A DNA stretch of 64,000 nucleotides from a virus (taxonomy: Duplodnaviria > Caudoviricetes). The stretch lies in IMG/VR virus record IMGVR_UViG_3300021185_003947; one strand, written 5' to 3'. Within the stretch, counting starts at the first letter, position 1, and each line of letters begins with the position of its first letter. A model generated the notes under the pieces. The model did no database searches and had not been told where the DNA came from. It saw only the letters and a list, made by a program, of their open reading frames with translations. Of the stretch, positions 9,439 to 58,299 are shown in pieces. Made by a program: the position numbers and the translations under genes.

Positions 9439-9462
9439 GTAAGAGGGAGTATTTCCTCTTAC
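9439..9462. terminator. Hairpin between convergent genes
   Basis: GTAAGAGGGA / TTCCTCTTAC inverted repeat. Confidence 0.5.
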
Positions 9463-11993
9463 CCATCTAATTCTGCTGTTGGTGGTGTAAAGTTTGTGGT
9501 ATATCTTGCAAGACCTTTTGTGATTCGGAAGTCTTGGATGTAGCCGTTCCAATACCGATCTGTAGCAACTTGGTCTCTACCTATTTCAAAAGGCCAAGTG
9601 GCTGTGCTAACTGAAGAACTTTCTGTTCCTGACGCACTAGAATCAACAGTTCCATTAATATAAGTCGCCCAAGCACCTGATGAATGTGTGCGAGTAACTG
9701 CGATGTGATACCATGTATTAATCGAAAGGGTTGTTGAACTTGTAACATTAATTCGTTGAGTTCCACTAGAACTGCTAGTCAACCTTAGTGTATTTCCATC
9801 ACCACCCTCAAAAAATAGTCTTACATAATTATTATCATCGCTATAAAATTCCCATAAACATTGCTTGACGCTTGTCGAAGTCGTATAAAACCACCCCTCA
9901 ATGGTAATGTCAGACAAACTAACATCAAAGTCATTACTTGCGGAGATTCTAAGATAATCTTCTGTACCATCAAATGCAATTGATTTTGTTCCAGCAAATT
10001 TTACTTGAGTTGTAGATGTTGCAGCATCACCAAAACATTGTATTTCACTTTTCTGACTCAAATCTGAAATAGATAATGTTGGATTGAATAGGAATGTAGT
10101 ATTCGAATCTGAAACCGCCGGAGTAGTTGAAGGTGTAAATGCGGCAGTATAAACAGCAGTACTTTCAATTTTTAGATCACTCACATACGCATTACAGGTA
10201 CTTGAACCAGCTCTATTTGAACCTATAGTTATATCTGTAGATGTAAGGTCTTTACTTGTTCCAATAGCATCTGTTCCTTCTAGATTGCCATTGATATACA
10301 TTTTTAAGTTTCCAGAACTATCTCTAACTATTGCAAAATGATTCCATGCATTTTTTGGATAATTAGTAGTTCCTTGAATTGGTCCAAAATCATTACTTGC
10401 TGTCCCAATATAAAAATATCCAGCATTGTATTGTGCAAAGTAAAAACCAGTTGAGGCATCTGCTGCTATAGGTCTAGTGTCAAAAATAATATCTGGATTA
10501 TTACTTCCAGTTGTATATACCCAACCTGACACTGTAAAATCTCCAGTGCCCATTGCTGTTATTGGAGATGTTAGTCTATTCGAACCAGAACTTTCTATTT
10601 TAGCGCTTTTACCATGATCTGCTTCTGAATATGGAGCATTGTCACCAGTAGAAGTATTAAATGGTACTACTTTAACATCTCCTTGAAGGGTTAATGCCAC
10701 ACTATTTGAAGATAGATCACGGACTTGTAATTTACCGATTAGTAAATCAGTATTTGAATCAGTAGTAAGTGCATCAGCTGGGGTAAAGTTTGTTGTATAT
10801 CTTGCATTGTCACTAACCCGGATATCATGCATGTATCCAGTGAATTTTTCTGGATGTGATTGATTGCTACCACCTATTCCAGCTAATGATGTTCCTGCTT
10901 GCATACCATACCAAGTGCCAGTTGCTCCTAGAGTTCCATTAATGTATAATTTAATTTGTGCTCCAGTAACCACCATAGCCACATGTGTCCATGTTTTTAA
11001 TGCAACTGTTGCTGTAGTTTCTAGATTATGTTGTCCTGCTCCGCTATAGTGATGACCGTGTAAATGACCACTATCGTCTATGCCAAAATTAAAATACACC
11101 CATTTTGATATTATAGAAGCGGCATTACCATCGATTCCGTTATTTGATCCTCTAGCCTCTTGATATACCCAACTTTCAATTGTAAATGTAGATGTTGAAG
11201 CATTTGCTTCTGTATGACTGCCCAAAAATCCAGTTGAAATATCAATACGATCGTTTCCATCAAAATATGTTGCATATCCCCCATGACGATATGGACTAAA
11301 TGTATTTGCTATAACCGTTCCATTTTTAGTTATAGTATTATTTGAACTAGATGCATCATCAAATGCTATATTTGATCCAGTATTAGCAGCTTTAACAGAT
11401 AATGAAGTATATCTTGAATTTAGTACAGTAAAACTTAATTCGAATATACTATCTTTTATAACTGCGCCGTTAATTCCATCTGTTGCACTAAATCTAAGCG
11501 TAAAAGTTCCAGCGTGGGCGCTATTAGTTGAAGGTGTAATAGTAAATACGTTATCTGCTTGAGATACTGTAGCAGTACTACCTAATGATCCAGATTGCAC
11601 TACATAGGACCATGTCAAAGCAAGTCCTTCTGGGTCTGTTGATACAGCAGTAACTGTGGTTGCTGTACCGTCCGTTGCAAGTGCATATGATCCGTCAACC
11701 CCAGTAATAGCTGAAGGTGCGTCATTTACAACAGTAGCAATTATATACCAACCTGAACCATTCCAAAGATACAGTTTGTTATTACTGCTAACAAGTACCG
11801 TATCACCGCTGTTCATTCCTGAAAGAGCAATTAAGGCATTAATATTTGCAACCACTTGCTGTCCACTTGCGCCGGCCCCCATGGCATCAGAAGTTAATTT
11901 TCTATCAGACGCACTTAATGTTTTATCTGCAATAGGAGAGAAAGCTCCTCCTCCCCCAAATGCTTTTGCAATTAAACTTGCTTTTGATGCCAT
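9459..11993 (-). CDS. Virion structural protein with concanavalin A/LamG-like domains
   Basis: Repeated FTIExWxY, WxHxAxxR, LYINGT and ISDxARY..NFTPP LamG signatures; late promoter at 12027. Confidence 0.8.
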   Translation of the reverse strand: MASKASLIAKAFGGGGAFSPIADKTLSASDRKLTSDAMGAGASGQQVVANINALIALSGMNSGDTVLVSSNNKLYLWNGSGWYIIATVVNDAPSAITGVDGSYALATDGTATTVTAVSTDPEGLALTWSYVVQSGSLGSTATVSQADNVFTITPSTNSAHAGTFTLRFSATDGINGAVIKDSIFELSFTVLNSRYTSLSVKAANTGSNIAFDDASSSNNTITKNGTVIANTFSPYRHGGYATYFDGNDRIDISTGFLGSHTEANASTSTFTIESWVYQEARGSNNGIDGNAASIISKWVYFNFGIDDSGHLHGHHYSGAGQHNLETTATVALKTWTHVAMVVTGAQIKLYINGTLGATGTWYGMQAGTSLAGIGGSNQSHPEKFTGYMHDIRVSDNARYTTNFTPADALTTDSNTDLLIGKLQVRDLSSNSVALTLQGDVKVVPFNTSTGDNAPYSEADHGKSAKIESSGSNRLTSPITAMGTGDFTVSGWVYTTGSNNPDIIFDTRPIAADASTGFYFAQYNAGYFYIGTASNDFGPIQGTTNYPKNAWNHFAIVRDSSGNLKMYINGNLEGTDAIGTSKDLTSTDITIGSNRAGSSTCNAYVSDLKIESTAVYTAAFTPSTTPAVSDSNTTFLFNPTLSISDLSQKSEIQCFGDAATSTTQVKFAGTKSIAFDGTEDYLRISASNDFDVSLSDITIEGWFYTTSTSVKQCLWEFYSDDNNYVRLFFEGGDGNTLRLTSSSSGTQRINVTSSTTLSINTWYHIAVTRTHSSGAWATYINGTVDSSASGTESSSVSTATWPFEIGRDQVATDRYWNGYIQDFRITKGLARYTTNFTPPTAELDG

Positions 11994-28158: not shown

Positions 28159-28977
28159 TTATTTGTTAAATGAGATATTTTGTTCAAGCTCCCTTTTATC
28201 TTTTGTATATTCAGATCTAATTTTATTATTTGATTTAATTACTTCATCTAATAAAGAAAACGATATTGCATAATCTAAAAACGCTGAAGTGTCTTTTGGA
28301 AAACAAGCTCCACCAAAACCCATTTTGCCATCAAATCCTGGAACACTCGTATGAGAGTTACCAATCCTTGGATCTGATCTCATTGCATAAGTAATCTCAT
28401 CAAAATTACAATCATGTTTTTGTATTATATCATAGAATTGATTGAACCATAATACCTTTGTAGCAAGAAAACAATTAATTCCATATTTAATAAAACTTGC
28501 TTCTTTTAATGTCACATGGTGGCATGGGCAAGGTTTACATTTACTATATTTTTTATATATTTTCTCAATATTATTTGTATCTTTAATATGCCCTCCAAAT
28601 ATATGCATTGGTGGATTAATAAAATCTTTATCTGCAGATTTTTCATTTAAAAATTCAGGATTATAAACTACTCTATCACCAGAAAGTTTATCTATAATGT
28701 CAGGTGTAACTGTTGATTTTATTACAATATGTCCAGCTCTATTAAGCTTTAACCATTTGACAGTTTCAATTACTAGTTCAGCATTAATTGATCCGTCATT
28801 ATTCATAGGTGTTGGTAAACATATAAAAAAGATATCATCAAATGGATTAGTATCTTCTACTGTAGTATTATATTTAATATCGATTGGTGTAATATCACAC
28901 AGTTTTTTATTAAAACCATTAATAATAGCTTTGCCTACAAATCCACATCCAATAACAGATATTTTTAATTTTAGCAT
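28159..28977 (-). CDS. ugd: UDP-glucose/GDP-mannose dehydrogenase family (short form)
   Basis: IGCGFVG, CLPTP, KST, NPEFL and GFGGACFPKD. Confidence 0.88.
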   Translation of the reverse strand: MLKLKISVIGCGFVGKAIINGFNKKLCDITPIDIKYNTTVEDTNPFDDIFFICLPTPMNNDGSINAELVIETVKWLKLNRAGHIVIKSTVTPDIIDKLSGDRVVYNPEFLNEKSADKDFINPPMHIFGGHIKDTNNIEKIYKKYSKCKPCPCHHVTLKEASFIKYGINCFLATKVLWFNQFYDIIQKHDCNFDEITYAMRSDPRIGNSHTSVPGFDGKMGFGGACFPKDTSAFLDYAISFSLLDEVIKSNNKIRSEYTKDKRELEQNISFNK

Positions 28978-30176
28978 ATAAATTCCTCTAATGTGTTACT
29001 CACCTTATCATAATTTATAGTTTGTTTTTTATTACATTGAATAGCAAATTTTGCATCAATCATTTGGTTATCAAGTCTGCCGTGTACAAAAGATTGAACT
29101 TGTTCAGCCATATCCTGTGCAGTAGTCACAGGAACATTTTGACAAATCATATTAAGATTTTTTATTCCACCTTGTAACATAAAATCACCTGGAAGTTTCA
29201 TAATAGAAAGACATTCTCGAATAGTCAAATAACGATCTTCATCTGGATGAGTAAGTGATCCTGGCATATGACCTACAAACGCTCCAATATAATCTTTAGG
29301 TATTTCAGTAGTCTTACGCATAATATTACCGCCACTTTTTAGCTTATGATACATACGATTACATTTACCAGCTTCGTTTTCAAATCCTTTTTCTTTCATC
29401 CACTCACCTACTTGATCATATTTAATTCCAGATTTTTCAATTTCATCAAGTGGATTAGTACTCTTTATAATTATATCTTGAAATTTAGAATGACAAATGC
29501 CATTATTAAGTTCTTCAAGTACATATTTATAAAACGGATTTTTACTTGGTATATTTTTATTAACAATTATATTCATAGGATCATCTTCATGTAGATCTAC
29601 ATTACGAATAGTATCTTCAATTTTTTCATGTTTGCGTTCAATATAACTTAACATTGGTATCTTATCACCTTGCCAGAAAAAATAAAAAGTACGATCACGT
29701 ACTTGGCTTAGTCCATGAAGTATAGATTTTGTTTTATAGATACTAAATGTATATCCATTTTGACTAGCAATTCGTTTTAACTGTTCAACAACAGGTTCGC
29801 CCATTTTGCTAGCCAGTCTTGGAGCATTTTCACCCCAAAATACTTTAGGTTTTAGTGTGCCTAAAACATGCCGAGCAGTACTTAACATCCAATCATTATT
29901 AGCATTAGTCGACGATGCAGATGGGCTAAGACTTGATAATCCAGCACATGGGCAAACAGTATTAATAACATCAACACTTGGTATGTTATAAGGAGTATCA
30001 CCATCTAAATGATGATAGGGTACTTTGTTTTTATAGTATTCAACTAACTGTCTATCATTAGCTTCAAACGCAGAATAGCTTAAAATATATTCAGGTTTTG
30101 TACCAAAAACATTTTCTTGGGCGATTGTTTCACCACCAATAAGTGGCACAATAGATGCGTGTTTATATGTCATCAA
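28971..30176 (-). CDS. C5-cytosine methyltransferase-like protein with atypical motif I
   Basis: PCAG (IV), ENAP (VI), QVRDR (VIII), RYLTIRE (IX) and QNVP (X); FxGxG replaced by PLIGG. Confidence 0.7.
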   Translation of the reverse strand: MMTYKHASIVPLIGGETIAQENVFGTKPEYILSYSAFEANDRQLVEYYKNKVPYHHLDGDTPYNIPSVDVINTVCPCAGLSSLSPSASSTNANNDWMLSTARHVLGTLKPKVFWGENAPRLASKMGEPVVEQLKRIASQNGYTFSIYKTKSILHGLSQVRDRTFYFFWQGDKIPMLSYIERKHEKIEDTIRNVDLHEDDPMNIIVNKNIPSKNPFYKYVLEELNNGICHSKFQDIIIKSTNPLDEIEKSGIKYDQVGEWMKEKGFENEAGKCNRMYHKLKSGGNIMRKTTEIPKDYIGAFVGHMPGSLTHPDEDRYLTIRECLSIMKLPGDFMLQGGIKNLNMICQNVPVTTAQDMAEQVQSFVHGRLDNQMIDAKFAIQCNKKQTINYDKVSNTLEEFIC

Positions 30177-31201
30177 AAAAAGTCCTCTAGTGTATTACTA
30201 ATTTCTTCACCAGTCCAATGTGGATAATATTGTCTTGATAAATGTATTGATTGAGGCTTTTCCATATAATCAAAATCTAACTCTCCTTCTCTATTTGTGA
30301 GTTTATTGACCCATCGAATTATTTTAGCTCTTTTAGCTTTTGTTTCTAAAATTTCTCTAAATTTTAATCTGGCCTCATTGCGCTGTTCCCAAGTACCCCA
30401 GAAGGGTTGGTCTTTATAATAACCAGACTTTGGTAATTTGCGACTAGTATGCTCAATAGGCAAAAGTTCATATATAGAAACATTTTCAATAGGTAATGCC
30501 TCAACTGCAGTTATATATCTTTCTGCTAAGTTAATAGTATTTTCTAAAAAATCTCCATCAAGCCGACAAACGTGATGGCGAATGTCAATATTACCAAAAT
30601 AACATTCAAGCTCTTTGATATTTTCAAAATCACTTATATATGTTTGAAGACCATCATTTAATGCGCCATTTAGTGTTTTAAATGGTACACTATTTACGGT
30701 CCAGCTTGGACGATACATACAAATAGAATGACTATCACCAATTACAAGCTTATTAGTTATTAAAGGATACTTAATAGTTTGAGCAGTTTCATACATTCTT
30801 TTAAGATTATCAATATCAACTTCAAGCCATTCAGATTGAATATCATTACCCTTTGCTTTTGCTTTATCAATTCTTTCTTGAATCATTTCATGATAAGGTG
30901 GAAAGTCAATTGCTAATGAATATACTTTACCTTTGAATTTTGAAAAGTTACGAGTGTTAGCAGCATAGGGAAATCCCTTTACACCACCAAACACATTCAT
31001 TGATCCAGACCAATCATTGCCATGATAAACATACATTTCGTCGTAGTCATTATGATCTTCAATTTTACCAGAATAGTTGATAGTAATATCAACTCCGGTT
31101 TGTTTGATCATATCAGCATAGATTGCACCTTGAGCACCTCTATGAGATGCCATACGAGTAGCAACTGGAATAAATGGAGCATTTAATATAGCTTTTATCA
31201 T
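30173..31201 (-). CDS. Putative DNA-modifying protein: beta-glucosyltransferase-like N-domain fused to an SGNH-like domain
   Basis: N-half KAILN / NDYDEMYV / MNVFGG / KFKGKVYSL resembles T4 BGT as I recall it. C-half has IGDSH, GNID and SIHLS. Confidence 0.45.
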   Translation of the reverse strand: MIKAILNAPFIPVATRMASHRGAQGAIYADMIKQTGVDITINYSGKIEDHNDYDEMYVYHGNDWSGSMNVFGGVKGFPYAANTRNFSKFKGKVYSLAIDFPPYHEMIQERIDKAKAKGNDIQSEWLEVDIDNLKRMYETAQTIKYPLITNKLVIGDSHSICMYRPSWTVNSVPFKTLNGALNDGLQTYISDFENIKELECYFGNIDIRHHVCRLDGDFLENTINLAERYITAVEALPIENVSIYELLPIEHTSRKLPKSGYYKDQPFWGTWEQRNEARLKFREILETKAKRAKIIRWVNKLTNREGELDFDYMEKPQSIHLSRQYYPHWTGEEISNTLEDFF

Positions 31202-31207
31202 TATAGT

Positions 31208-31236
31208 AATATATCACACTTTCTTATAAATGTAAA
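31208..31236 (-). promoter_or_regulatory. sigma70-type early promoter
   Basis: TTTACA-N17-TATATT. Confidence 0.6.
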
Positions 31237-31239
31237 GGT

Positions 31240-32337
31240 CTAAACCATAAAAGATTCTAATGGTGATGGTTCAAGTTTTTTCTTTAAATTTTCAGCAATA
31301 TCAACAAACGAATCAAACGTTAATGGTAACATTCTTTTAGTTTGAGCCTTTGAATTATCTTTGATTCCAAGAAAACAATTAAATTGACAAAAAGTAATTT
31401 CAGTACCAAAGGTTGTGAGATTACCATTTCGTTCAAGATTTTCTTTATAGAACATTGCAGAAGTGTTATCCATTTCAAAAAACTCATGTTGATGATCTCT
31501 AACTGCTATTATATATGCTTCCATAATTTCATTATTTTTAAATTTAACTTCTGGAAATACATACTCAAGACCACGTTTAGCACCAGGGCCAACTAAACAA
31601 TAATTATCATCCTCATCAATATTAGGTAAATCATTACATCTAGAAAAATTGCAGGGTGGGTGATATGAAAAATATGGTCCAATACCACGATGAGTAGAGA
31701 ACCAATCACAAACATCACCTAGTTTATTATTTTTATCTTGTACAACCTTACTCATACCAAGATCATCTAAATGAGCCATCCATCTAATCATGTGAGATAA
31801 AGCAAACTTTTCGTTTGGATCTTCATCTTCTTCTCTACAAAAATTACGAGCAGATGTTTGAAGACTAGTTTGAAGTTGAGTTGCACCCCAAACTTTCATT
31901 TTGTTTTTATTAGTATTTAGATTGTTATTAATCCAATGATAATAATCTTTTTTTAGTTTATATTCATCAAAATCAATAATTTTACTATAGTCAGTAGAGT
32001 CTGAAGCAACCAAAGTAAGTGTTGGCATACCTACAAACTTTACTGCCATAGCATTGAGAATTTTATTTCTCATTGAAGTATCTTGGTTAAATACAAAATT
32101 CTCTAACCAATATACCTCGGCATGTTTAGAACGATTTGGGTTCCAATATGAAACTTCTTGTCTCATTGCAGGGCCAAAATCTTCAGAGTATTCGTATTCG
32201 TTAATTTGACCCCTTTCTCTTAAAGTTTCTCTTTTAAAAAAATCAAGAACCCACTTATTAAAATAATTAAAATTATTTGGATCACGGGTCTGTTTTAACG
32301 TTTTAAGCGAAATCATGCCGCACATTTTCCTTTTCAA
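31240..32337 (-). CDS. aGPT-Pplase / amino-acid:DNA transferase-like protein (HhH-glycosylase fold)
   Basis: RGIGPYFSY...D...VGPGAKRGL..VFP...EITFCQF pattern. True start may be internal. Confidence 0.6.
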   Translation of the reverse strand: MKRKMCGMISLKTLKQTRDPNNFNYFNKWVLDFFKRETLRERGQINEYEYSEDFGPAMRQEVSYWNPNRSKHAEVYWLENFVFNQDTSMRNKILNAMAVKFVGMPTLTLVASDSTDYSKIIDFDEYKLKKDYYHWINNNLNTNKNKMKVWGATQLQTSLQTSARNFCREEDEDPNEKFALSHMIRWMAHLDDLGMSKVVQDKNNKLGDVCDWFSTHRGIGPYFSYHPPCNFSRCNDLPNIDEDDNYCLVGPGAKRGLEYVFPEVKFKNNEIMEAYIIAVRDHQHEFFEMDNTSAMFYKENLERNGNLTTFGTEITFCQFNCFLGIKDNSKAQTKRMLPLTFDSFVDIAENLKKKLEPSPLESFMV

Positions 32338-32737
32338 CTAAATCGTGTTGTAGCAATACCACATTAATGTGGGGCATCATTTTTCTAATGATTTCTGCTT
32401 GAATTGGATCATCTTCATAATGTATTCCAAATCTATATCCAAGTGTTTCAAGATGAAAAAGTGTCCGGCCTTTATGGCGGCCGGAGTCTTCTCTTGATTT
32501 TGATTCAAATGGTGTTGGATTTAAATACAATTCATTGGTTATATTTTTAGATTTAAGCATTGCTTCAGTTTCAGATCTTTCTTCATTAGATCGACCTGTA
32601 ATGATAACATCTCTATCACCTGGATAAACACCATCATATTTATCCATAAAAATAACACCATCAATATCAAAAGAATTAATTATTTTATCTGGAACAGCAT
32701 TTTGCTCTACATAATTATTCATAATCAGTTTTTCCAT
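32303..32737 (-). CDS. HAD-superfamily phosphatase
   Basis: FDIDGV, ITGRS, K and YEDD; directly downstream of the MIPS gene. Confidence 0.8.
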   Translation of the reverse strand: MEKLIMNNYVEQNAVPDKIINSFDIDGVIFMDKYDGVYPGDRDVIITGRSNEERSETEAMLKSKNITNELYLNPTPFESKSREDSGRHKGRTLFHLETLGYRFGIHYEDDPIQAEIIRKMMPHINVVLLQHDLVEKENVRHDFA

Positions 32738-34010
32738 CTTGGTATGTATATGGCAAATCTTTAGCTTTAGGATTAGATTTAGCTAATTGTGGCCGAGTCA
32801 TATTAGTAAGCTCTCGACGAGCAAGGGCATCACATTCAAACTTTGCATCAGATGTTGTAAGCTGAACAGGTGGAGTTTTTTGTGTATAAGCACTTGGCCC
32901 ACGAAGAATGCCAACAATTCCCATTTCAGCAGCTACTCGACAGAAACGAATTGCTGATATAACAACACCACCTGAGTTTGGTGAGTCTTGACATGATAGT
33001 CTAGCTTGAAGAGTATAACGAGCTCCACCAAATCCAAATGCTACAATATCAAGATCTGCAATCTTATTATCAGATCCAACATAATCACCACCTGGTTTTT
33101 GCATAACAGTTAGAGATGGGCCGGCATATAGTGTATCACCGGCATAGTCAACACCACGGACAGTATTCTGTCCTTTTAAAACATTTTCTTTTGAGATATG
33201 TTTATTATGTAAACGCTCTTTTTCAGCCATATTAATAAAGTCAGTGTTTGATGTAACACCATTACGAATATGTTCACGGCCTTGGGTTGCTCCACCAATT
33301 CGATTGGTTTGAGTATGATATGTAACATGTAAACCACCATCAATCATTGCACCCTGCAATACCTCAGATAAACGAGATGCTCCCCAAGCTGAACGCATAT
33401 CAGATCCAACAAAAGTAAGACCTGCATTAATAAATTTTTGTTCGATTTCTTGAGTTTCTTTTGTTTCAATCAATGTTGGAATACAATTAACAAAATGTAC
33501 TTCAGCAGCAAGAGCAACGTCTAAATAAAAGCGAGTAGCTTTTTCAGATCCAACTGGCAGATAATTAATAAGAACTTCGACACCAGATGATTTGATAAGA
33601 CTAACAATATCATCAAATGACTTAGCTGATTCAGCACCAACTCTAAATGATACTTCTTCAGGGTAATATTCCATCCATTCTGCAACACCATCAAGTGTTG
33701 GGCTTGAATACACTTGAGCGCCTTTGGCTACAGCTCCAGGTGAATTGTTTCCAGATTCTAATATTTCTTGAACATGATTCATTGCGCAATTTGGTTTTGC
33801 TCGTAAAGCTTCAATAAGAGGACGATTAACTTTACGACGGTCTACGTCAAAGCCAATTACAAATTCAACAGAGCTTGTATCGTATCCACCAATATCTGGA
33901 TACATAAGACCTACAGTATCATTTGGATTTTCATTATAATATTGCATGCCTTCAACAAGCGACTGTGCGCAGTTTCCTACACCAATAATACCAACTTTAA
34001 TTTTCTTCAT
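32715..34010 (-). CDS. ino1: myo-inositol-1-phosphate synthase homologue (Ino1 type)
   Basis: IGVGNCAQSLVEG, FDVDRRKV, YLPVGSE, VNCIP, TDFINM, ISK and DSPNS. Confidence 0.88.
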   Translation of the reverse strand: MKKIKVGIIGVGNCAQSLVEGMQYYNENPNDTVGLMYPDIGGYDTSSVEFVIGFDVDRRKVNRPLIEALRAKPNCAMNHVQEILESGNNSPGAVAKGAQVYSSPTLDGVAEWMEYYPEEVSFRVGAESAKSFDDIVSLIKSSGVEVLINYLPVGSEKATRFYLDVALAAEVHFVNCIPTLIETKETQEIEQKFINAGLTFVGSDMRSAWGASRLSEVLQGAMIDGGLHVTYHTQTNRIGGATQGREHIRNGVTSNTDFINMAEKERLHNKHISKENVLKGQNTVRGVDYAGDTLYAGPSLTVMQKPGGDYVGSDNKIADLDIVAFGFGGARYTLQARLSCQDSPNSGGVVISAIRFCRVAAEMGIVGILRGPSAYTQKTPPVQLTTSDAKFECDALARRELTNMTRPQLAKSNPKAKDLPYTYQDGKTDYE

Positions 34011-34137: not shown

Positions 34138-34671
34138 TTACAAATTAACCCATCTATATTTAAGACCAGCTTCTTTGTAATATGACTTAGATCTTTGCCA
34201 TGAGTCATGCCATTTTTCATCAATCTTTTGCCGTGGCATGACTAGTTCAGCAACTCCTACTTGAATAAGTCCTTTTGCGCAATCAGAACAAGTAGGAAGA
34301 CCTGATACGTAAACAGTTGATTTATTTAAACACACACCATTAAAAGATGCATTATAAATCATGTTCATTTCAGCATGAACAATTCTAACATATTTCTCTT
34401 TTCGATTACTATATAGGTTAGGACTATCAAGCATTCCTCGAGGAAATCCATTATATCCTTGAGCTAAGACTTGCCCTTTTGAACCTACAGCAATGGCTCC
34501 AATTTGGCTTGAAGGATCTTTAGACCATCCAGCAATAGTTTTAGCTAGCTCTAAATATCTTAGATCCCACTTATGTTGTCGGGCAAGAAAAGCTTTATCA
34601 TTTTTTTTATGAGCATTCTCTCTATCTTTCATATCATTATAATTATTTGACAAGATTAAAATGCCTTTCAT
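34138..34671 (-). CDS. cd: dCMP deaminase
   Basis: SKDPSSQIGA, GYNGFPRG, HAEMN and PTCSDC. Confidence 0.93.
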   Translation of the reverse strand: MKGILILSNNYNDMKDRENAHKKNDKAFLARQHKWDLRYLELAKTIAGWSKDPSSQIGAIAVGSKGQVLAQGYNGFPRGMLDSPNLYSNRKEKYVRIVHAEMNMIYNASFNGVCLNKSTVYVSGLPTCSDCAKGLIQVGVAELVMPRQKIDEKWHDSWQRSKSYYKEAGLKYRWVNL

Positions 34672-35332
34672 ATACGTGAAGATTTTGTACCTGCCAGATC
34701 ATCATACCAGCGCTAACTGGATCTTTAACTATACAGATATTATTTAAATCATCTACTAATTTATTTTGTACATGTCGTTGCCAAGCATAATCGTTCTTAT
34801 AACCAAACACCACATCATTAGACCGCATTTGGACTACACAATGAAGTAAATTATCACGAATATAGTAAGTGACAGCGTTAGTACAAATGAAATCAGATTT
34901 TCCATTTTCGTTAAACTCCACCCAAATAGAAGGCCGATTGTAGATCATAGAAGCACGTCTACCATCGGGATTTTTGTCTAGTTCAGCCAATACGTTTTGA
35001 TATTGATCATAGTATTTATTCGAATAAATTAGATGACCATAGTTTGAATTAATTTCACCATGTGTATTAGCAGCATATTTCCAAGCAGCTGGAGCATCTT
35101 CGCCAGACTCTTTATTAATATCAAAGATATTAGTTGATTGGCTATCATACCAATCCAATTCTTTTTGAATATATGAAAGAGACGGTTTACCAAATATAGA
35201 TGGCTCATCAGCAATAAATGATGCACCAATCATTTCAATAGTGCGTGCGCCAGTTTTATCAATAGTAAATGCTTCATCATTTAATTCATCAATAAAGAAT
35301 TGACGAACATCTTTTACAGAATTCATTTTCAT
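34643..35332 (-). CDS. 42: dCMP hydroxymethyltransferase (T4 gp42-like)
   Basis: DKTGARTIEMIGASFIADEP, GEINSNYG, DFICT and MRSNDVVFGYKNDYAWQ, with the cytosine-specifying Asp as in T4 gp42. Confidence 0.88.
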   Translation of the reverse strand: MKMNSVKDVRQFFIDELNDEAFTIDKTGARTIEMIGASFIADEPSIFGKPSLSYIQKELDWYDSQSTNIFDINKESGEDAPAAWKYAANTHGEINSNYGHLIYSNKYYDQYQNVLAELDKNPDGRRASMIYNRPSIWVEFNENGKSDFICTNAVTYYIRDNLLHCVVQMRSNDVVFGYKNDYAWQRHVQNKLVDDLNNICIVKDPVSAGMMIWQVQNLHVYERHFNLVK

Positions 35333-35736
35333 TGCTCACATACTCTCTTTCTTAGATCGCTTGTTGAAAAGCGATGATCACGTTTATTAAAATAAAGATC
35401 TATACCACGTTGTCGACATTCATCTTTACCAGTAAAATCTTTACTCCTATATTCTTCACCAAGTATCCTAACATCAATTGGATACATGTTTATTATATCA
35501 CATAAATCGCTTTCTGTACAATAAATAATCACTTCATCTACATATTTTATTGCATTGAGCTGTACCTGTCTTTCCACAATATTTTGAATTGGAGCATTCT
35601 TTTCTTTACGATCGATGGTAGGATCTACTTGCAGACCGCAGATCAAATAGTCACACTGTGACTTTGCTTCTCTGAGCATAGATACATGTCCAGCATGAAG
35701 TAAATCAAAAGTACTACAAGTAAATCCCACTTTCAT
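35329..35736 (-). CDS. Cytidylyltransferase (TagD/HIGH family)
   Basis: TFDLLHAGH, GLQVDPT and RDHRFSTS. Confidence 0.88.
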   Translation of the reverse strand: MKVGFTCSTFDLLHAGHVSMLREAKSQCDYLICGLQVDPTIDRKEKNAPIQNIVERQVQLNAIKYVDEVIIYCTESDLCDIINMYPIDVRILGEEYRSKDFTGKDECRQRGIDLYFNKRDHRFSTSDLRKRVCEQ

Positions 35737-36041
35737 TAGTCGTGTTCTCCATTATTTCTACGACCGTTATATCCATCAATTCTATCAAAAAGCTTAGGAT
35801 TGCGCTTTGCAGTATCAAATGTGCCGACTGTAATCACAATTGCTGCTAATAGCAATGTATGAACGATTGCGTTAATACCCCAAAACATAATGCTTCCTAA
35901 ATACATAGAGCATACAGATACCCACATCCAAGCAAGTATCTGCATAATCAAATGTCTAACTTGAAGATTTGGTATATTTCTTAAAGGATTAATATCTGCA
36001 TCCATGACACTATTCCAAGCATCATTAATAAATTCTCTCAT
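35736..36041 (-). CDS. Small membrane protein
   Basis: Two TM segments; NPLRNIP. Confidence 0.65.
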   Translation of the reverse strand: MREFINDAWNSVMDADINPLRNIPNLQVRHLIMQILAWMWVSVCSMYLGSIMFWGINAIVHTLLLAAIVITVGTFDTAKRNPKLFDRIDGYNGRRNNGEHD

Positions 36042-36384
36042 TGTCCGATCTCCCTACAGTTTCTCTTATGATATCGTTGTGGTTAAACTCAGCCCAGTAT
36101 AACTCAAAAGCTACACCAGGTTCAATACATTCAAATTGATGATAAACTCCTGGTTTCACTTTAGTATATTCACCAGCTTGTAAAATAGTTTCATCGATTA
36201 AATCGTAATCATTTTGCCATACGCGTACAAGCATTATTCCTGACTCGATATAGAAACCATTCCATTTGTACTCATGCAGATGTTTTGAGCATACTCCTGT
36301 AGCTTCCATTTCAATACGATGAAATTCTAAAGTGCCATTAGCTTCAATGAGTTCAGTCATTCCCCAGACTTTACCAGCTTTCAA
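36025..36384 (-). CDS. Cupin-domain protein (sugar isomerase-like)
   Basis: GKVWG, SKHLHE.K.NGF and PGVYHQF. Confidence 0.75.
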   Translation of the reverse strand: MKAGKVWGMTELIEANGTLEFHRIEMEATGVCSKHLHEYKWNGFYIESGIMLVRVWQNDYDLIDETILQAGEYTKVKPGVYHQFECIEPGVAFELYWAEFNHNDIIRETVGRSDNERIY

Positions 36385-37650: not shown

Positions 37651-38586
37651 TTATGCATTTTTATATGCATATTCTATAGCTCTATCAGCTTCAATATTTA
37701 ATGGTCGTTTTTCATATCTACGGCTTGTTTCATTATCCAATTCTCTTACTAATTGTTCAATTTCATATGACGATATTGGATATTCTTTTTTAATAGCACT
37801 TATTGCTGTTGATACCATGATCTTATATATCATAGCGTATCTACCAGAATTATCAATACCAGATATAGCAAACCATTCTTTAATATGATTCTTATTAATA
37901 AATGGACAGTCTCTATATCCAGACCAATTAAAATTAGTATTTTCCATTTTATTTTTACGATGTTCTATAACCTGAGCTTGCATTTCAGGTGTAAGCCTAT
38001 CCATAAATGATGACCCTCGTTTTTCAGTATATGGATGTTTGGATATTAACTGCTCAGGATCAATATACACACCACTATTACTGAATATAAAATTGTTAGC
38101 GCCAGCATACGTTGCAGGGATGTAATACATTCGAGATAAATCTTTAGTTTGTCCATCTCCAATTTCGCCGAGTTCTTTATTGAGGGCGAACCAAAAATGT
38201 CTAATTTTATCAGATTTAATCTTTGCTTTAATTGGAAAGACAAGTCTAAACTTTGGATGATTATCGGAACTACTAGCAGTACTATAGCAAACATAATGAA
38301 AACTGCCGAAACGATTATATAATTCATCCTTTAGGTTTCCTTTAAACTCATGATCATCAACATCAACAGCAGTCCAACCTGACCAATCCAAAACATTTTT
38401 GTTTGCCCGAGTCGTATCATCAACATAACTAGCTGGTGATATAAGTTCAGCATCTTTTTTTCCTTTCCGAGGTATCTCAGACAATTTATACAACAGCTTC
38501 TCAAATTGAGAGAAGCTTTTAAATTTCATGTTACGATTAGTTTTGTTATCGTATATAGATTTAAAGAATGTCGCTGAGACTTCCAT
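37651..38586 (-). CDS. Archaeo-eukaryotic-type (AEP) primase
   Basis: AVDVDD, YSTASS, KFRLVFP and DLSRMYYIP; start reassigned to MEVSATF. Confidence 0.7.
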   Translation of the reverse strand: MEVSATFFKSIYDNKTNRNMKFKSFSQFEKLLYKLSEIPRKGKKDAELISPASYVDDTTRANKNVLDWSGWTAVDVDDHEFKGNLKDELYNRFGSFHYVCYSTASSSDNHPKFRLVFPIKAKIKSDKIRHFWFALNKELGEIGDGQTKDLSRMYYIPATYAGANNFIFSNSGVYIDPEQLISKHPYTEKRGSSFMDRLTPEMQAQVIEHRKNKMENTNFNWSGYRDCPFINKNHIKEWFAISGIDNSGRYAMIYKIMVSTAISAIKKEYPISSYEIEQLVRELDNETSRRYEKRPLNIEADRAIEYAYKNA

Positions 38587-38974
38587 GATTACCTCTATGA
38601 GTTGGTGCAGTCCATCCTTCAGGCTTAAGCAAATCAGGCAATCCAAATGGATTAGGACGACCAGGCTTTACGCCAGGAGATTTAGTCATATTAGCATCAA
38701 ATACTTTTGTCCAAGCCTCATTACCATTTACACCTAAAACTTCAAGTGTACCAATAGCAAATACACACATATCAATTAAACCATCAACTACTTCTTCAGC
38801 ATCTTTTGCTTCAATAGCATCCATAGTCTCGTCATATTCTTCTTTAATCATTGACATACGAAATGCAAGATATTTTGCCATCAATTCCTTATTATCTTTA
38901 TTAGCTTCAAACCAATCATTTACTCCGAATTTTTTATGCATTTGCTCGATGTCATTAAACCATACTTTAGTCAT
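38561..38974 (-). CDS. All-alpha NTP pyrophosphohydrolase (MazG/PRA-PH-like; possible dCTPase/dUTPase)
   Basis: EEYDE...EEVVDGLID...ANMTK...KPEGW. Confidence 0.75.
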   Translation of the reverse strand: MTKVWFNDIEQMHKKFGVNDWFEANKDNKELMAKYLAFRMSMIKEEYDETMDAIEAKDAEEVVDGLIDMCVFAIGTLEVLGVNGNEAWTKVFDANMTKSPGVKPGRPNPFGLPDLLKPEGWTAPTHRGNHGSLSDIL

Positions 38975-39000: not shown

Positions 39001-39717
39001 TTATAACATATTTTTAACAGCTTGTAAATAAGAAAATGTATCTTCCCAACTATTCACTTGATATGTACTATTTTCTCCTCCACGATCATGTACAGCTAAT
39101 GCGATTTCATGATCATTTCCACCTTTATCACATTTGTCTCCAAAGAAATAGATAACATCTGAAGAATCAAAATCATCAAGAATTTGTGATTTATTATTTC
39201 CTTTAGCAGTAATATCTATACCGGTTTCGCCAGCGACTTGAAATTCAAACAATGGAAATCGCTCTCGTAGCTTAGCAGCAATATTATTTCTTTCATTAGT
39301 ATAATTGTCATATGCTACGTATTGAATTCGAGTACGATTACCTATATTTCTTCCTGGAATAGACAAGTTATATAGACCCGGACGTTCCTCAATATGCTGT
39401 CCGTTTTTAACTGGAAATGAACTGTCAGTAATTGCTTTGTTTAAATAGCCCCACATTTCATCTGGTAACTTTAAAGTAGAAGTACGAACATTCTTACCGC
39501 GTTCCCACACGTCATTTCCACAACATTGATAATTGCGCTTAGTCATTCCCCAAATAACTTCTCCAACTTGCTCTCGTGTTTTTTGAATATCGCTACCTGT
39601 TACTAAATACACTTTATTTAAAGTACAAAAATCAAAGAAAAACTTTGAAAACTCTTCATCCATTTTACCTCTGCTTGGAGTAAGAGTTCCATCAACATCA
39701 AAAATAAAATTAATCAT
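39001..39717 (-). CDS. HAD IIB phosphomannomutase (eukaryotic PMM type)
   Basis: FDVDGTLTPSR, VTGSD, IEER and FFGDK...GGNDHEI. Confidence 0.85.
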   Translation of the reverse strand: MINFIFDVDGTLTPSRGKMDEEFSKFFFDFCTLNKVYLVTGSDIQKTREQVGEVIWGMTKRNYQCCGNDVWERGKNVRTSTLKLPDEMWGYLNKAITDSSFPVKNGQHIEERPGLYNLSIPGRNIGNRTRIQYVAYDNYTNERNNIAAKLRERFPLFEFQVAGETGIDITAKGNNKSQILDDFDSSDVIYFFGDKCDKGGNDHEIALAVHDRGGENSTYQVNSWEDTFSYLQAVKNML

Positions 39718-40942
39718 TTATTAAGCTTTCTAGAATGTTTAACACACTTTCACTATCGTCATGAGTACCACGTCTAATAGCTCCCTTGACACAATTTCTA
39801 GTAAAGTCCAATGGATATCGCTTGCCTTCTTTATCCATTCCCGTATTGATTAAATATACATTGCATTTATTATCATTAATTTTACTCATTAGTAAATCAC
39901 TATAAACATGTATCGGTCTTGGCATAAAAGGTGAGCCATAGCATGGACTAAAGAGTGGCTTGATTTCTGTTGCTCCCTGCTCAGTTCCGGGCATTTGGCT
40001 TGTGTATCCAGTTTCAAAGAAACGTCGTACAGTCTCATCAGAAATTTTAGATACCGGAGGAAACACGCCTTTCGCATCCATAGTAAGAAAAAAGATATTA
40101 GTTGGATGATTAAATTGTTGAGGTTTATGATATGCGTTTTCAACACAAGTAATTGGATAACTTAATCTTGCATTTGGTACACCTGGATTTTCTACAACTA
40201 AGCAATCTTCTGATCTTGCTTTTTCTACTGCATCAAATATAGTCTTATGTGTCTCTGGTGTTAATCCTTCACTTTTTGCGTAACAACCAGTTTCTATCAT
40301 TTCAATTCCATCGTGATTCCAAGATACTTCGTCATCACTAATTAATCTATAATCCGGATCGCTACTAAGAGTAGTTTTACCAGTACCACTTAATCCAAAC
40401 ATTAAATTAGTTGTATCATTATATGTAAAGGCACTACAATGCATTGGTAAAATATCATATCTTGGTAGTTCAAAACTAACTATACCAAATATACCTTTTT
40501 TGATTTCACCTAAAAATGTTGTTCCAGCAATTAACATAGTTTTAGTATCAAGATTTACATAGATTTTTGGTTCATCGACCTTTAATTCTGTGTTATGCCA
40601 AATCGTCCAATCAGAATCATGTGCGCTATGTGGATAAACTTGAGGATCAAACCCATCAGGCAATACATCAAACATATTCTTAACAAATTGCTCATGTCTC
40701 GCATCATTAGTAATTATTTTAAATCTGATATTACATGTCTCAAGGCATAAAGGTTCTTTATAAATCAATTGAGATATTAACCTAGGCATCATCAAATCTG
40801 CAAGTTGAAGAAAGTCTTCCATCTCTCCAACTTTATAATACTTTGGTCGAGTCTTATCTAAACACTTTGTTTTTTCTCCAAAAAAGTATTTATTTTCTGG
40901 GCTTCGGCCAGTTGGATTTGTTGTAATATTAATATTTGTCAT
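39710..40942 (-). CDS. pckA: Phosphoenolpyruvate carboxykinase (ATP), compact form
   Basis: [42 protein letters not shown] and NTG. Confidence 0.9.
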
Positions 40943-56638: not shown

Positions 56639-56744
56639 TGACTATTGGAGTAGTTCTGAAGCAAATAGCGGTTCAAAGGGGTATACTGGTGGTACAGAAA
56701 CCCGGCCAAGAAACATTGCATTTCTAGCTTGTATTAAATATTAA
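56638..56744 (+). pseudogene. Orphan 3' end of a tail-collar fibre gene
   Basis: Reads ...GGTETRPRNIAFLACIKY* out of frame with the ATG at 56638. Confidence 0.7.
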
Positions 56745-56756
56745 GGAGACATTGGT

Positions 56757-57152
56757 ATGAACGTATATCAGACAGATTTAAATGGTGTTTATGTAGGCAC
56801 TACAACAGCAGATCAAGACCCTTTAGATGACACTAACTGGCTTATTCCAGCGGGTTGCGTACAGACTGCACCACCAACAATAACTGACAGCCAACTTGCT
56901 AAGTGGGATGGTTCAGGATGGGTTGTAGAGAATATACCCATTGTAGAACCTGATCCAGAACCTGAGTCTATTGCACCAGAAGTTTTAGCCCGTGGAAAGC
57001 GTGACGGACTATTGATAACTTCAGATTGGACACAGGTTGATGACTCTCCTGTAGATAAGTCTGCTTGGGCAACATACAGACAACTTTTACGGGACGTACC
57101 AACTCAAGCAGGATTTCCAAACACAATAACATGGCCCACTTCACCCGAATAG
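56757..57152 (+). CDS. Tail fibre assembly chaperone
   Basis: KRDGLLITSDWTQ...WATYRQLLRDVP...FP...WPTSP. Confidence 0.85.
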   Translation: MNVYQTDLNGVYVGTTTADQDPLDDTNWLIPAGCVQTAPPTITDSQLAKWDGSGWVVENIPIVEPDPEPESIAPEVLARGKRDGLLITSDWTQVDDSPVDKSAWATYRQLLRDVPTQAGFPNTITWPTSPE

Positions 57153-57178
57153 AGTATGCATAATTAGGAGAAAAAGGA

Positions 57179-57847: not shown

Positions 57848-57859
57848 GGAGAAACAATA

Positions 57860-58276
57860 ATGTCTGTTACAATTACACAAGTGCGTAATGCACAATCACT
57901 TAACGTAGAGAATACTGCATATGATGTAGAAATTAATCATCCCGATTACGGTTGGATACCTTACACTTTGGACCCTAGCGACACTGATATGACTATCGAT
58001 AACAATGCTGTAATGTCTTTGATAAGCACAAACTTTACATCTTATGTAGCACCTACTCAGGCAGAGTTAGATGCAGAACTTGAAGCAAATCTAAGAAGTC
58101 AACGTGACCAGAAGTTAGTAGAAGAATTGGACCCTATAGTAACTAACCCTTTACGTTGGGCAGAACTTACATCTGATAAGCAAACAGAGTGGACACAATA
58201 TAGAACTGACTTATTAAATGTACCACAACAGTCAGGGTTTCCTACAAATGTAACTTGGCCAGATAAACCTGTATAA
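57860..58276 (+). CDS. Tail fibre assembly chaperone
   Basis: HPDYGWIPYT; RSQRD...WTQYRTDLLNVPQQSGFP..VTWP. Confidence 0.8.
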   Translation: MSVTITQVRNAQSLNVENTAYDVEINHPDYGWIPYTLDPSDTDMTIDNNAVMSLISTNFTSYVAPTQAELDAELEANLRSQRDQKLVEELDPIVTNPLRWAELTSDKQTEWTQYRTDLLNVPQQSGFPTNVTWPDKPV

Positions 58277-58279
58277 ATA
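58272..58279 (+). promoter_or_regulatory. Late promoter TATAAATA
   Basis: Exact motif 21 nt upstream of 58300. Confidence 0.75.
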
Positions 58280-58299
58280 TATAATCAGGAGAAACAGAA

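What the first reader, a model, noticed from the sequence alone, without database searches (positions are those of the whole stretch)
30173..31201. Apparent fusion of a T4 beta-glucosyltransferase acceptor domain to an SGNH domain
The N-terminal ~110 aa align by eye with T4 BGT as I remember it (MKIAIIN~MIKAILN, DVNDYDRLIV~DHNDYDEMYV, SINFFGG~SMNVFGG, KYKSKIYYLFTD~KFKGKVYSLAID). The C-terminal half has SGNH blocks (IGDSH, GNID, SIHLS) rather than a UDP-glucose-binding domain. This would be a modified-base-recognising domain wired to a Ser-His acyltransferase/esterase, a DNA-modifying architecture I do not recognise from known systems.
Basis: inference. Interest (0 to 1): 0.75.

Follow-up and report, generated by a model that had tools for sequence, protein, structure and literature searches.

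The report
BGT-like/SGNH phage DNA-modification enzyme
A marine T4-like phage encodes a two-domain protein, part T4 DNA glucosyltransferase and part Ser-His esterase/acyltransferase, that belongs to a large uncharacterised phage family always paired with DNA-base transferase-like proteins, and so is probably a new enzyme for decorating hydroxymethylated DNA bases.

Summary
ORF 30173-31201 (-), 342 aa, has two domains. Residues 1-147 are homologous to the N-terminal (DNA/acceptor) domain of T4 beta-glucosyltransferase: profile-profile 97.8%, E 1.2e-12, and BGT is the top hit of two independent fold searches. Residues 148-330 have an SGNH fold (Z 11-13.4), with invariant GDSH, GN-ID and a C-terminal His.

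It is not a one-off fusion. It is a conserved family seen here only in phages and viral metagenomes (412 clusters at 50% identity), with no assigned function. BGT's catalytic Asp and its UDP-glucose domain are not kept, so it is not a glucosyltransferase.

The gene sits where b-gt sits in T4, between uvsX and gene 42, inside a conserved cassette: gp42, dCMP deaminase, inositol-P synthase, HAD, ORF2, this gene, C5-MTase-like. A related phage lacks the whole cassette.

In 83 of 88 loci it lies near an aGPT-Pplase/HMUDK_hel-type protein, and natural fusions to both partner types exist. No P-loop 5-hmdU DNA kinase is present.

Best reading (inferred, about 0.4): it derivatises the 5-CH2OH of hmC in DNA, most likely by O-acylation. 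That would take the activating role the kinase has in thymidine hypermodification.

First readers of this scan noted the same architecture in other genomes; those notes are unchecked.

The parts
30173..31201 (-). Whole gene (342 aa plus stop): two-domain BGT-N-like/SGNH protein, identical to protein P0001
   Evidence: ORF list. AF2 model pLDDT 96.6, pTM 0.93. Family of 412 clusters at 50% identity. phrog_13881 and phrog_17781, both of unknown function.
30761..31201 (-). N-terminal domain, residues 1-147: homologue of the T4 beta-glucosyltransferase N-terminal (acceptor/DNA) domain
   Evidence: hhalign 97.8%, E 1.2e-12. Foldseek ranks 1-3 are T4 BGT entries. VIA-align rank 1, Z 7.5. Coordinates checked.
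30983..30997 (-). NVFGG (residues 69-73), the family's NxFGG signature, aligned to the BGT family's invariant N70, G73 and G74
   Evidence: N69 in 90/92, G72 in 78/92, G73 in 86/92. BGT invariants. Alignment.
31142..31147 (-). S19-H20, a nearly invariant Ser-His pair at the start of helix 1 of the N-domain; role unknown
   Evidence: S19 in 89/92, H20 in 90/92. Secondary structure.
30173..30760 (-). C-terminal domain (residues 148-342) with an SGNH hydrolase/acyltransferase fold
   Evidence: VIA-align Z 11-13.4 to GDSL esterases, PAF-AH, PatB, OatA and OafB. Foldseek PDB and AFDB.
30728..30739 (-). GDSH, SGNH block I: candidate nucleophile Ser157, with invariant His158
   Evidence: G155 in 91/92; D156, S157 and H158 in 92/92. 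Lies at the end of strand 151-155, before helix 157-162.
30584..30595 (-). GNID, SGNH block III-like: candidate oxyanion Asn204. Followed by the invariant basic run R208-H209-H210 and R213.
   Evidence: G203 in 90/92, N204 in 85/92, I205 and D206 in 92/92, R208 in 91, H209 in 89, H210 in 92, R213 in 90.
30236..30265 (-). MEKPQSIHLS, block V-like: candidate catalytic His320 and acid Glu314
   Evidence: E314 and H320 in 92/92, M313 in 89, S318 in 86.
31240..32337 (-). ORF2 (365 aa), the upstream partner. It is a HMUDK_hel / aGPT-Pplase-superfamily helical protein with invariant E313...C317.
   Evidence: Pfam HMUDK_hel E 1.3e-9. Family HMM hits M6 gp55 at E 1.9e-5, and gp55 is M6's HMUDK_hel protein. 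Invariants. Fused to the target family in 44RR2.8t ORF233c/P0175 and in P0160.
28971..30176 (-). C5 cytosine methyltransferase-like gene, overlapping the target's stop; co-conserved downstream
   Evidence: Pfam DNA_methylase E 1.1e-18. Present in 68 of 80 related loci.
32303..34010 (-). HAD-type phosphatase (32303-32737) and inositol-3-phosphate synthase homologue (32715-34010), the likely source of the group attached
   Evidence: NCBIfam TIGR03450 E 4e-58 and phrog_415. Found in 57 of 80 loci, always next to ORF2.
34643..35332 (-). gp42-type dCMP hydroxymethylase, which supplies hmC
   Evidence: 52% identity to T4 gp42, E 2e-81, with the RSND motif kept.

Best explanation
The gene encodes a DNA-hypermodification enzyme that descends from a BGT-like ancestor. 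Its N-domain keeps the T4 beta-glucosyltransferase acceptor-side scaffold and probably docks on DNA containing 5-hydroxymethylcytosine. The sugar-nucleotide domain has been replaced by an SGNH Ser-His catalytic domain (Ser157, His320, Glu314, Asn204).

It works with, and is sometimes fused to, a helical aGPT-Pplase/HMUDK_hel-superfamily protein (ORF2 here) that carries an invariant Cys. My proposal is that it derivatises the 5-CH2OH of hmC in DNA, most likely by transferring an acyl (acetyl-size) group through an acyl-Ser157 intermediate. The resulting ester would be a leaving group. This is the role the P-loop 5-hmdU DNA kinase plays in thymidine hypermodification.

The Cys-dependent partner (ORF2 and/or the C5-MTase-like protein) would then replace the ester with a nucleophile. 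In this cassette that is probably myo-inositol made by the MIPS and HAD pair. In the second module type it is probably an amino acid, later processed by a PLP enzyme.

Shown here: the domain homologies, the conserved residues, the synteny, the fusions and the absence of a kinase. Inferred: DNA binding, the acyl chemistry, the donor, the order of steps and the final product.
For: N-domain homology to BGT:
- hhalign 97.8%, E 1.2e-12.
- BGT is rank 1 in Foldseek and in VIA-align.
- BGT-family invariants D60, N70, G73 and G74 align with family positions D54, N69, G72 and G73, conserved in 78-90 of 92 members.

SGNH C-domain:
- Fold Z 11-13.4.
- D156, S157, H158, D206, E314 and H320 invariant in 92 sequences down to 27% identity.
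- The nearest structures are acetyl-esterases and O-acetyltransferases, including PatB, OatA and OafB.

Position and cassette:
- Same position as b-gt in T4: uvsX, b-gt, 42, against uvsX, C5MT, target, ORF2 ... gp42 here.
- The cassette is conserved across 80 IMG/VR loci.
- The related phage C48C1 lacks the whole block, gp42 included.
- gp42 is a true dCMP hydroxymethylase homologue.

Partner:
- A partner is present in 83 of 88 loci. The other five are cut at a contig end.
- Natural fusions exist to ORF2-type partners (44RR2.8t ORF233c of 795 aa; P0160) and to partner-B (P0166, P0173, P0190, P0250, P0269).
- P0160 lies next to MIPS, HAD and a TS-like gene.

Parallel with the M6/ViI pathway:
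- The second module type is target, partner-B and a PALP enzyme homologous to M6 gp52, the PLP decarboxylase. This mirrors kinase, AADT and PLP enzyme in M6 and ViI (PMC8989533).
- In M6 the P-loop kinase gp54 lies directly beside the HMUDK_hel protein gp55.
- M6 gp54 has no homologue in the window or in any fetched locus.
Against: - No biochemical data exist for any member.
- The SGNH assignment rests on fold and motifs. This protein has no Pfam SGNH/GDSL hit at E<=0.1, and only 9 of 92 members have weak ones.
- Block V is E-x5-H, not D-x-x-H.
- Cytoplasmic SGNH enzymes are mostly hydrolases, and no acyl donor is encoded in the cassette.
- The many invariant Arg and His residues (R208, H209, H210, R213, R254, R274) would also fit a phosphate-bearing donor, so the leaving group might not be a carboxylic ester.
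- BGT's catalytic Asp is not conserved, so base recognition like BGT's is assumed, not shown.
- In M6 the HMUDK_hel paralogue gp55 was dispensable in lysate reactions (PMC8989533), so the partner's role is itself unclear.
- In the distant type II loci no hydroxymethylase was seen in the 16-17 kb available.
- A kinase elsewhere in this genome cannot be excluded, because only 64 kb were seen.
Confidence: 0.4

Rival explanations
1. It is a hydrolase, not a transferase. The SGNH domain would remove an acyl or protecting group from a DNA-linked intermediate or from the small-molecule donor (for example an esterified cyclitol or amino acid). It would therefore act late in the same hypermodification pathway rather than as the activating step.
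For: Most SGNH structures nearest to the model are acetyl-esterases (7tog, 7pzg, PAF-AH). The catalytic Ser, His and Asn are conserved. No acyl donor gene is in the cassette. The DNA-modification context is the same as for the best explanation.
Against: It leaves the pathway without any activating step for the 5-CH2OH, although no kinase is present. A pure trimming enzyme would not be expected to be the one constant, and fused, partner of both types of aGPT-Pplase-like protein.
Confidence: 0.2
2. It is the group transferase itself, built on GT-B logic: the N-domain holds hmC-DNA, and the SGNH-derived domain holds a phosphate-bearing donor (a nucleotide- or phospho-activated cyclitol or sugar, or ATP). 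The Ser-His pair and the invariant Arg/His cluster would then do phosphoryl or phospho-alcohol chemistry rather than acyl chemistry.
For: Two alpha/beta domains with a confident fixed arrangement (pTM 0.93). Foldseek aligns the whole model to BGT at E 1.6e-4, though at TM only 0.28. Invariant R208, H209, H210, R213, R254 and R274 lie beyond the SGNH core. The window also carries a cytidylyltransferase, a phosphomannomutase and a UGDH-like gene.
Against: I know of no SGNH-fold enzyme that uses such donors (my own knowledge). The cytidylyltransferase and phosphomannomutase were found in none of the 80 related loci, and the UGDH-like gene in only 5, so they are not part of the conserved system. 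The HAD phosphatase next to MIPS points to free inositol rather than an activated form.
Confidence: 0.15
3. It is not a DNA enzyme. It would be a carbohydrate or metabolite esterase (an auxiliary metabolic or host-envelope function) that merely lies in the early gene region, and the BGT-like domain is a generic Rossmann-like module.
For: The N-domain Z of 7.5 is only 1.4 above unrelated flavodoxin-like folds. The Pfam BGT hit is below its cutoff. Several nearest SGNH structures are carbohydrate esterases.
Against: Profile-profile E 1.2e-12 to BGT, with the shared invariant motif. Strict co-occurrence with, and fusion to, aGPT-Pplase/HMUDK_hel-type proteins. The cassette is gained or lost together with gp42. 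No signal peptide or structural-gene context is evident; it lies among replication genes.
Confidence: 0.08

Closest known systems
T4 beta-glucosyltransferase (b-gt; Pfam PF09198; PDB 1qkj, 1c3j)
   Same: The N-terminal domain is homologous (hhalign 97.8%, and the top hit of two structure searches). The YD...NxFGG signature is shared. The genomic position between uvsX and gene 42 of a T4-like phage is the same. It co-occurs with a gp42 dCMP hydroxymethylase.
   Different: There is no UDP-glucose-binding C-domain; an SGNH domain stands in its place. The catalytic Asp100 position is not conserved. Pfam score is below the family cutoff. It is therefore not a glucosyltransferase.
SGNH/GDSL esterases and O-acyltransferases (PbeAcXE 7tog, sialate esterase 7pzg, PAF-AH 1bwp, PatB 7tjb, OatA 6vjp, OafB 6se1)
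   Same: Same fold at Z 9-13.4. GDS(H) sits at the end of strand 1, there is a GN-D block after strand 3, and a C-terminal His.
   Different: No significant sequence-profile match for this protein. Block V is E-x5-H. There are extra invariant Arg/His residues. It is cytoplasmic, fused to a BGT-like domain, and set in a DNA-modification cassette. In my literature searches I found no SGNH enzyme reported to act on DNA.
Thymidine hypermodification modules of phages M6, ViI, PaMx11 and PhiW-14: P-loop 5-hmdU DNA kinase, aGPT-Pplase/AADT, PLP decarboxylase (PMC8989533, PMC11472151)
   Same: The same partner superfamily is present (HMUDK_hel hit; ORF2 HMM hits M6 gp55; partner-B's nearest Atlas clusters carry HMUDK_hel or ADDT). 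The type II module has a PLP enzyme of the same type as M6 gp52. The logic is the same: a hydroxymethylpyrimidine made by a TS-like enzyme and then substituted.
   Different: There is no P-loop kinase; this protein stands where the kinase would be. The base is hmC (gp42 with the RSND motif kept) rather than hmU. The likely nucleophile is a cyclitol (MIPS plus HAD) rather than an amino acid. A C5-MTase-like gene is added.
Aeromonas phage 44RR2.8t ORF233c / phage 31 ORF233c (phrog_17781) and phrog_13881, annotated hypothetical
   Same: These are true family members (33% identity over 96% of the query, E about 1e-41). In 44RR2.8t the protein is a single 795-aa polypeptide that joins this domain pair to an ORF2-like domain. 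That phage also has a gp42 homologue.
   Different: Fused rather than split. It lies next to a sodium:solute symporter gene rather than MIPS and HAD. No function has been assigned to any of them.

Membership tests
T4 beta-glucosyltransferase (PF09198 / GT-B DNA glucosyltransferase) | N-terminal domain homologous in sequence profile | tested here: met
   hhalign of the family profile against the BGT alignment: 97.8%, E 1.2e-12, BGT 1-99; 97.0%, E 1e-10, BGT 1-118.
T4 beta-glucosyltransferase (PF09198 / GT-B DNA glucosyltransferase) | Score above Pfam's curated cutoff | tested here: not met
   15.5 bits against a cutoff of 27, E 0.015. Only 7 of 92 members hit at all, best E 0.0033.
T4 beta-glucosyltransferase (PF09198 / GT-B DNA glucosyltransferase) | N-domain fold | tested here: met
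   Foldseek ranks 1-3 are T4 BGT entries, E 2.4e-4, TMq 0.53. VIA-align rank 1, Z 7.5, rmsd 2.7 A, 107 residues.
T4 beta-glucosyltransferase (PF09198 / GT-B DNA glucosyltransferase) | Catalytic general base Asp100 conserved | tested here: not met
   Asp is invariant in 7 BGT homologues. The aligned column in this family reads P 31, D 21, E 14, K 10 of 92, although this particular protein has Asp99.
T4 beta-glucosyltransferase (PF09198 / GT-B DNA glucosyltransferase) | C-terminal UDP-glucose-binding Rossmann domain | tested here: not met
   The hhalign match stops at BGT residue 118. Residues 148-330 match the SGNH fold at Z 11-13.4.
SGNH/GDSL hydrolase superfamily | Fold | tested here: met
   Z 13.4 to 7tog, 12.9 to 7pzg, 12.1 to 1bwp and dozens more. 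AFDB and Atlas hits are SGNH proteins.
SGNH/GDSL hydrolase superfamily | Block I GDS nucleophile Ser | tested here: met
   G155 in 91/92; D156, S157 and H158 in 92/92, at the strand-helix junction.
SGNH/GDSL hydrolase superfamily | Block II Gly and block III Asn (oxyanion hole) | tested here: inconclusive
   N204 in 85/92 within G-N-I-D, one residue longer than GxND. Candidate block II residues are T176 (92/92) and G179 (82/92). No coordinates were available to check the geometry.
SGNH/GDSL hydrolase superfamily | Block V DxxH | tested here: inconclusive
   H320 is invariant. The only invariant acid nearby is E314, with spacing 6 rather than 3.
SGNH/GDSL hydrolase superfamily | Significant sequence-profile match | tested here: not met
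   No Pfam GDSL/SGNH hit for this protein at E<=0.1. Nine weak hits among the 92 members, best 2.1e-4. No PDB sequence hit.
SGNH/GDSL hydrolase superfamily | Esterase or acyltransferase activity | not testable with these tools
   Needs an enzyme assay.
5-hmdU DNA kinase (5-HMUDK), as functional analogue only | P-loop kinase domain | tested here: not met
   M6 gp54 finds nothing in the window or in the roughly 90 loci. No window ORF at the target's coordinates appears in the Walker A scan.
5-hmdU DNA kinase (5-HMUDK), as functional analogue only | Adjacency or fusion to an HMUDK_hel / aGPT-Pplase-type protein in a hydroxymethylpyrimidine cluster | tested here: met
   83 of 88 loci have a partner. 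Fusions. In M6, gp54 lies beside gp55, its HMUDK_hel protein.

The most novel reading that the evidence does not exclude
This family is a new class of DNA-base O-acyltransferase. It would make 5-acyloxymethylcytosine in phage DNA as an activated intermediate, a kinase-independent route to hypermodified bases. In this abundant group of marine T4-like phages the ester would be displaced by myo-inositol, giving a cyclitol-decorated cytosine, a DNA base not yet described.
Probability: 0.25. Interest if true: 0.9.

Novelty: new variant of a known kind. Interest (0 to 1): 0.72.

Why it matters
Phage DNA hypermodification defeats restriction and CRISPR defences. It has also supplied enzymes for epigenetic sequencing: T4 BGT itself is a standard hmC-labelling reagent.

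The one kinase-dependent route worked out so far acts on hydroxymethyluracil. This family would add three things:
- a second, kinase-free activation chemistry;
- an enzyme directed at hmC in DNA, built on the BGT scaffold but with Ser-His chemistry, which could be used as a tool;
- an entry point to the unknown modified base of a large, globally distributed group of marine T4-like phages (Tara and IMG/VR contigs) and of the cultured Aeromonas phages 44RR2.8t, 31 and 25.

It is also a clear case of domain replacement in a GT-B enzyme.

Tried and rejected
- Sequence searches of the protein and of the family profiles against PDB found neither BGT nor SGNH proteins. Only profile-profile and fold comparison did.
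- The ORF2 profile against PDB found nothing, not even the AADT structure 8Z2M.
- hhalign of the ORF2 family against the partner-B family was not significant (E 0.095). Their kinship rests only on Atlas feature similarity and a shared E-x3-C motif.
- Complex prediction of the target with ORF2 gave no verdict (score 0.00, controls not run). This is no evidence either way.
- megablast of the cassette against phage records found nothing. The window's own assembly is not held, and the nearest held record is an 11-kb fragment without the gene.
- A BGT profile search of the 44RR2.8t genome found nothing, but it was run without a positive control, so absence of a true BGT there is not established.
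- Records behind the metagenomic type II loci could not be searched for a hydroxymethylase.
- Literature searches for SGNH plus hydroxymethylcytosine, for inositol-phosphate synthase plus phage DNA modification, and for 44RR2.8t DNA modification found nothing relevant. The Iyer et al. 2013 paper is not held.
- CDP-inositol as donor was considered and set aside, because the cytidylyltransferase was found in none of the 80 related loci.
Full report
**The gene.** The ORF at 30173-31201 on the minus strand encodes 342 aa. Its stop overlaps the start of the downstream C5-methyltransferase-like gene. A 38-nt spacer separates it from the upstream ORF2.

**The window.** It comes from a T4-like phage of about 33% GC, with gp41 helicase, UvsX, gp43 polymerase, a gp46-like ATPase, UvsW and tail-fibre genes. 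The closest record by UvsX is the Kyanoviridae phage C48C1, at 74.6% identity.

**The family.**
- The protein has 1333 relatives at 90% clustering and 412 clusters at 50% identity. Nearly all are about 320-370 aa and match over residues 3-330, so the two halves travel together.
- The Atlas clusters of this shape are 99-100% viral.
- In cultured phages the family occurs in T4-like Aeromonas phages (44RR2.8t, 31, 25, Aes508, phiAS4 and others), in Stenotrophomonas phage IME13 and in Tenacibaculum phages. All copies are annotated hypothetical. PHROGs lists the family as of unknown function.
- I found no paper on it.

**N-terminal half.**
- Pfam's BGT model hits weakly (E 0.015, below cutoff). HMMER against PDB finds nothing.
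- Profile methods do find it. A 92-sequence family profile against T4 BGT alone gives 83-90%. Against a 7-member BGT alignment (29-61% identity to T4) it gives 97.8%, E 1.2e-12, and with the full-length profile 97.0%, E 1e-10, covering BGT 1-118.
- The AF2 model of residues 1-147 (pLDDT 95.6) has T4 BGT as its best PDB match by Foldseek (ranks 1-3, E 2.4e-4). It is also the best match by the independent all-against-representatives VIA-align search: Z 7.5, rmsd 2.7 A, 107 residues, model 2-145 on BGT 1-137, next hit Z 6.1.
- The BGT-family invariants D60, N70, G73 and G74 align with family positions D54, N69, G72 and G73 (81, 90, 78 and 86 of 92).
- The column aligned with BGT's catalytic Asp100 is not conserved (Asp in 21 of 92).
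- The family adds its own near-invariant S19-H20 pair.

**C-terminal half.**
- The full model is very confident (pLDDT 96.6, pTM 0.93).
- Residues 148-330 match SGNH/GDSL enzymes at Z 11-13.4. These include acetyl-esterases and the O-acetyltransferases PatB, OatA and OafB. Foldseek against PDB and AFDB agrees.
- The invariant or near-invariant residues sit where SGNH blocks I, III and V lie: G155-D156-S157-H158 after strand 1, G203-N204-I205-D206 after strand 3, and E314...H320 near the C-terminus.
- Beyond the SGNH core the family keeps T176, R208, H209, H210, R213, E250, R254, G269 and R274. This suggests an anionic ligand, such as the DNA backbone or a phosphate-bearing cofactor.
- Among the 92 members scanned singly, the only recurrent Pfam families are T4-Gluco-transf (7 members) and GDSL/SGNH models (9 weak hits in total). 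All other hits are singletons.

**Genomic context.**
- T4 has 41, 40, uvsX, segA, b-gt, 42, imm, 43.
- This window has gp41, uvsX, UGDH-like, C5-MTase-like, the target, ORF2, HAD, inositol-3-phosphate synthase, dCMP deaminase, gp42, and further on gp43. The target therefore occupies the b-gt position.
- gp42 is 52% identical to T4 dCMP hydroxymethylase and keeps the RSND motif.
- In 80 IMG/VR loci with 50-99% identical copies, the order gp42, deaminase, MIPS, HAD, ORF2, target, C5MT, uvsX, gp41 recurs. The cytidylyltransferase was found in none of these loci and the UGDH-like gene in only 5.
- C48C1, the closest complete relative, goes from gp43 to uvsX without gp42, MIPS, ORF2, the target or the C5-MTase-like gene. 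The block therefore behaves as one cassette.

**The partner.**
- ORF2 hits Pfam HMUDK_hel (E 1.3e-9). An HMM of its family hits M6 gp55, which is the HMUDK_hel protein of phage M6 and lies directly after the P-loop 5-hmdU DNA kinase gp54. The ORF2 family has invariant E313 and C317.
- A second partner family, here called partner-B (335-450 aa, invariant E304...C308), replaces ORF2 in other loci. It comes together with a PALP-fold PLP enzyme homologous to M6 gp52, the PLP decarboxylase.
- Partner-B's nearest Atlas clusters carry HMUDK_hel or ADDT domains (score 0.96; a lead only).
- Of 88 loci with the target, 83 hold one of the two partners. The other five are cut at the relevant contig end.
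- Natural fusions exist with both partners. Target plus ORF2-like: 44RR2.8t ORF233c, 795 aa. FkbM methyltransferase plus ORF2-like plus target: P0160, next to MIPS, HAD and a TS-like gene. Target plus partner-B: P0166, P0173, P0190, P0250 and P0269.
- 44RR2.8t also has a gp42 homologue between gp41 and gp43.

**Comparison with the known pathway.**
- In phages M6, ViI and PaMx11 a P-loop kinase phosphorylates 5-hmdU in DNA. A Cys-dependent aGPT-Pplase clade-2 enzyme (AADT) then displaces the phosphate with an amino acid, and a PLP enzyme trims the product (PMC8989533; mechanism and Cys247 in PMC11472151).
- The modules found here have the same partner superfamily, and in type II the same PLP enzyme. 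They have no kinase: M6 gp54 finds nothing in the window or in any locus.
- The constant extra component is the BGT-N/SGNH protein. I therefore infer that it supplies the step acting on the 5-CH2OH. The Ser-His SGNH domain, whose nearest structures handle acetyl groups, points most simply to O-acylation that creates a leaving group.
- This inference is untested. A hydrolytic role, or a phosphate-type donor, fits parts of the evidence as well (see the rival explanations).

**Verdict.** The architecture claim is confirmed. The protein is not a BGT, because the catalytic Asp and the donor domain are missing. By sequence it is not a curated SGNH family member, although it has the fold and the key residues. 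It represents an uncharacterised, widespread phage enzyme family tied to hydroxymethylpyrimidine DNA hypermodification. First-stage notes of this scan describe the same architecture in other genomes; those notes are unchecked.

Noticed in passing
window 35329-35736, 36025-36384, 39001-39717, 39710-40942, 28159-28977 (all minus strand): Around the cassette lie a TagD/RfaE-type cytidylyltransferase, a cupin, a phosphomannomutase, a 410-aa PEPCK_ATP-family protein (E 1e-91) and a truncated UDP-glucose dehydrogenase-like protein. The cytidylyltransferase, phosphomannomutase and PEPCK-like genes were found in none of 80 related loci. They may be a strain-specific sugar-nucleotide add-on or auxiliary metabolic genes.
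   Followed up: partly
L001:4408-5931 (Aeromonas phage 44RR2.8t): A sodium:solute symporter gene (annotated as similar to sodium/glucose cotransporters) sits directly upstream of the 795-aa fused homologue. That phage lacks MIPS and HAD at this locus, so it may import the group it attaches to DNA.
   Followed up: no
L030:6696-7907, L087:9484-10491, L085:9520-10584; C-terminal parts of P0166, P0173, P0190, P0250, P0269: This is a second partner family ('partner-B', 335-450 aa, invariant E-x3-C and many Gly/Pro) with no Pfam or PHROG hit. By language-model features it lies nearest to HMUDK_hel/ADDT clusters. It probably forms a new clade of the aGPT-Pplase superfamily.
   Followed up: partly
L083:1331-4276 (P0160): A 981-aa triple fusion of FkbM-type methyltransferase, HMUDK_hel-like domain and the BGT-N/SGNH unit. 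It is flanked by MIPS, HAD and a thymidylate-synthase-like gene.
   Followed up: partly
L102 (phage C48C1, OQ984149.1): The closest complete relative by UvsX (74.6%) lacks the whole gp42-to-C5MT block. Between gp43 and uvsX it has a DNA methyltransferase, a primase, a nucleotide-sugar epimerase and a UGDH instead.
   Followed up: partly
window 31202-31239 (minus strand): The ORF2-target spacer contains TTTACA, 17 nt, then TATATT, ending 6 nt before the ATG, and shows no clear Shine-Dalgarno sequence. It may be an internal promoter or an unusual translation start.
   Followed up: no
window 9459-11993 (-) and 56000-62400 (+): An 844-aa protein has three ConA-like/Laminin_G_3 domains. The tail-collar-domain fibre genes lie in a stretch of 42-44% GC, against about 33% elsewhere in the window.
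   Followed up: no
window 38561-38974 (-): A MazG/PRA-PH-type pyrophosphohydrolase is conserved near gp42 in 26 of 80 loci. It is a plausible stand-in for a dCTPase in an hmC phage.
   Followed up: no
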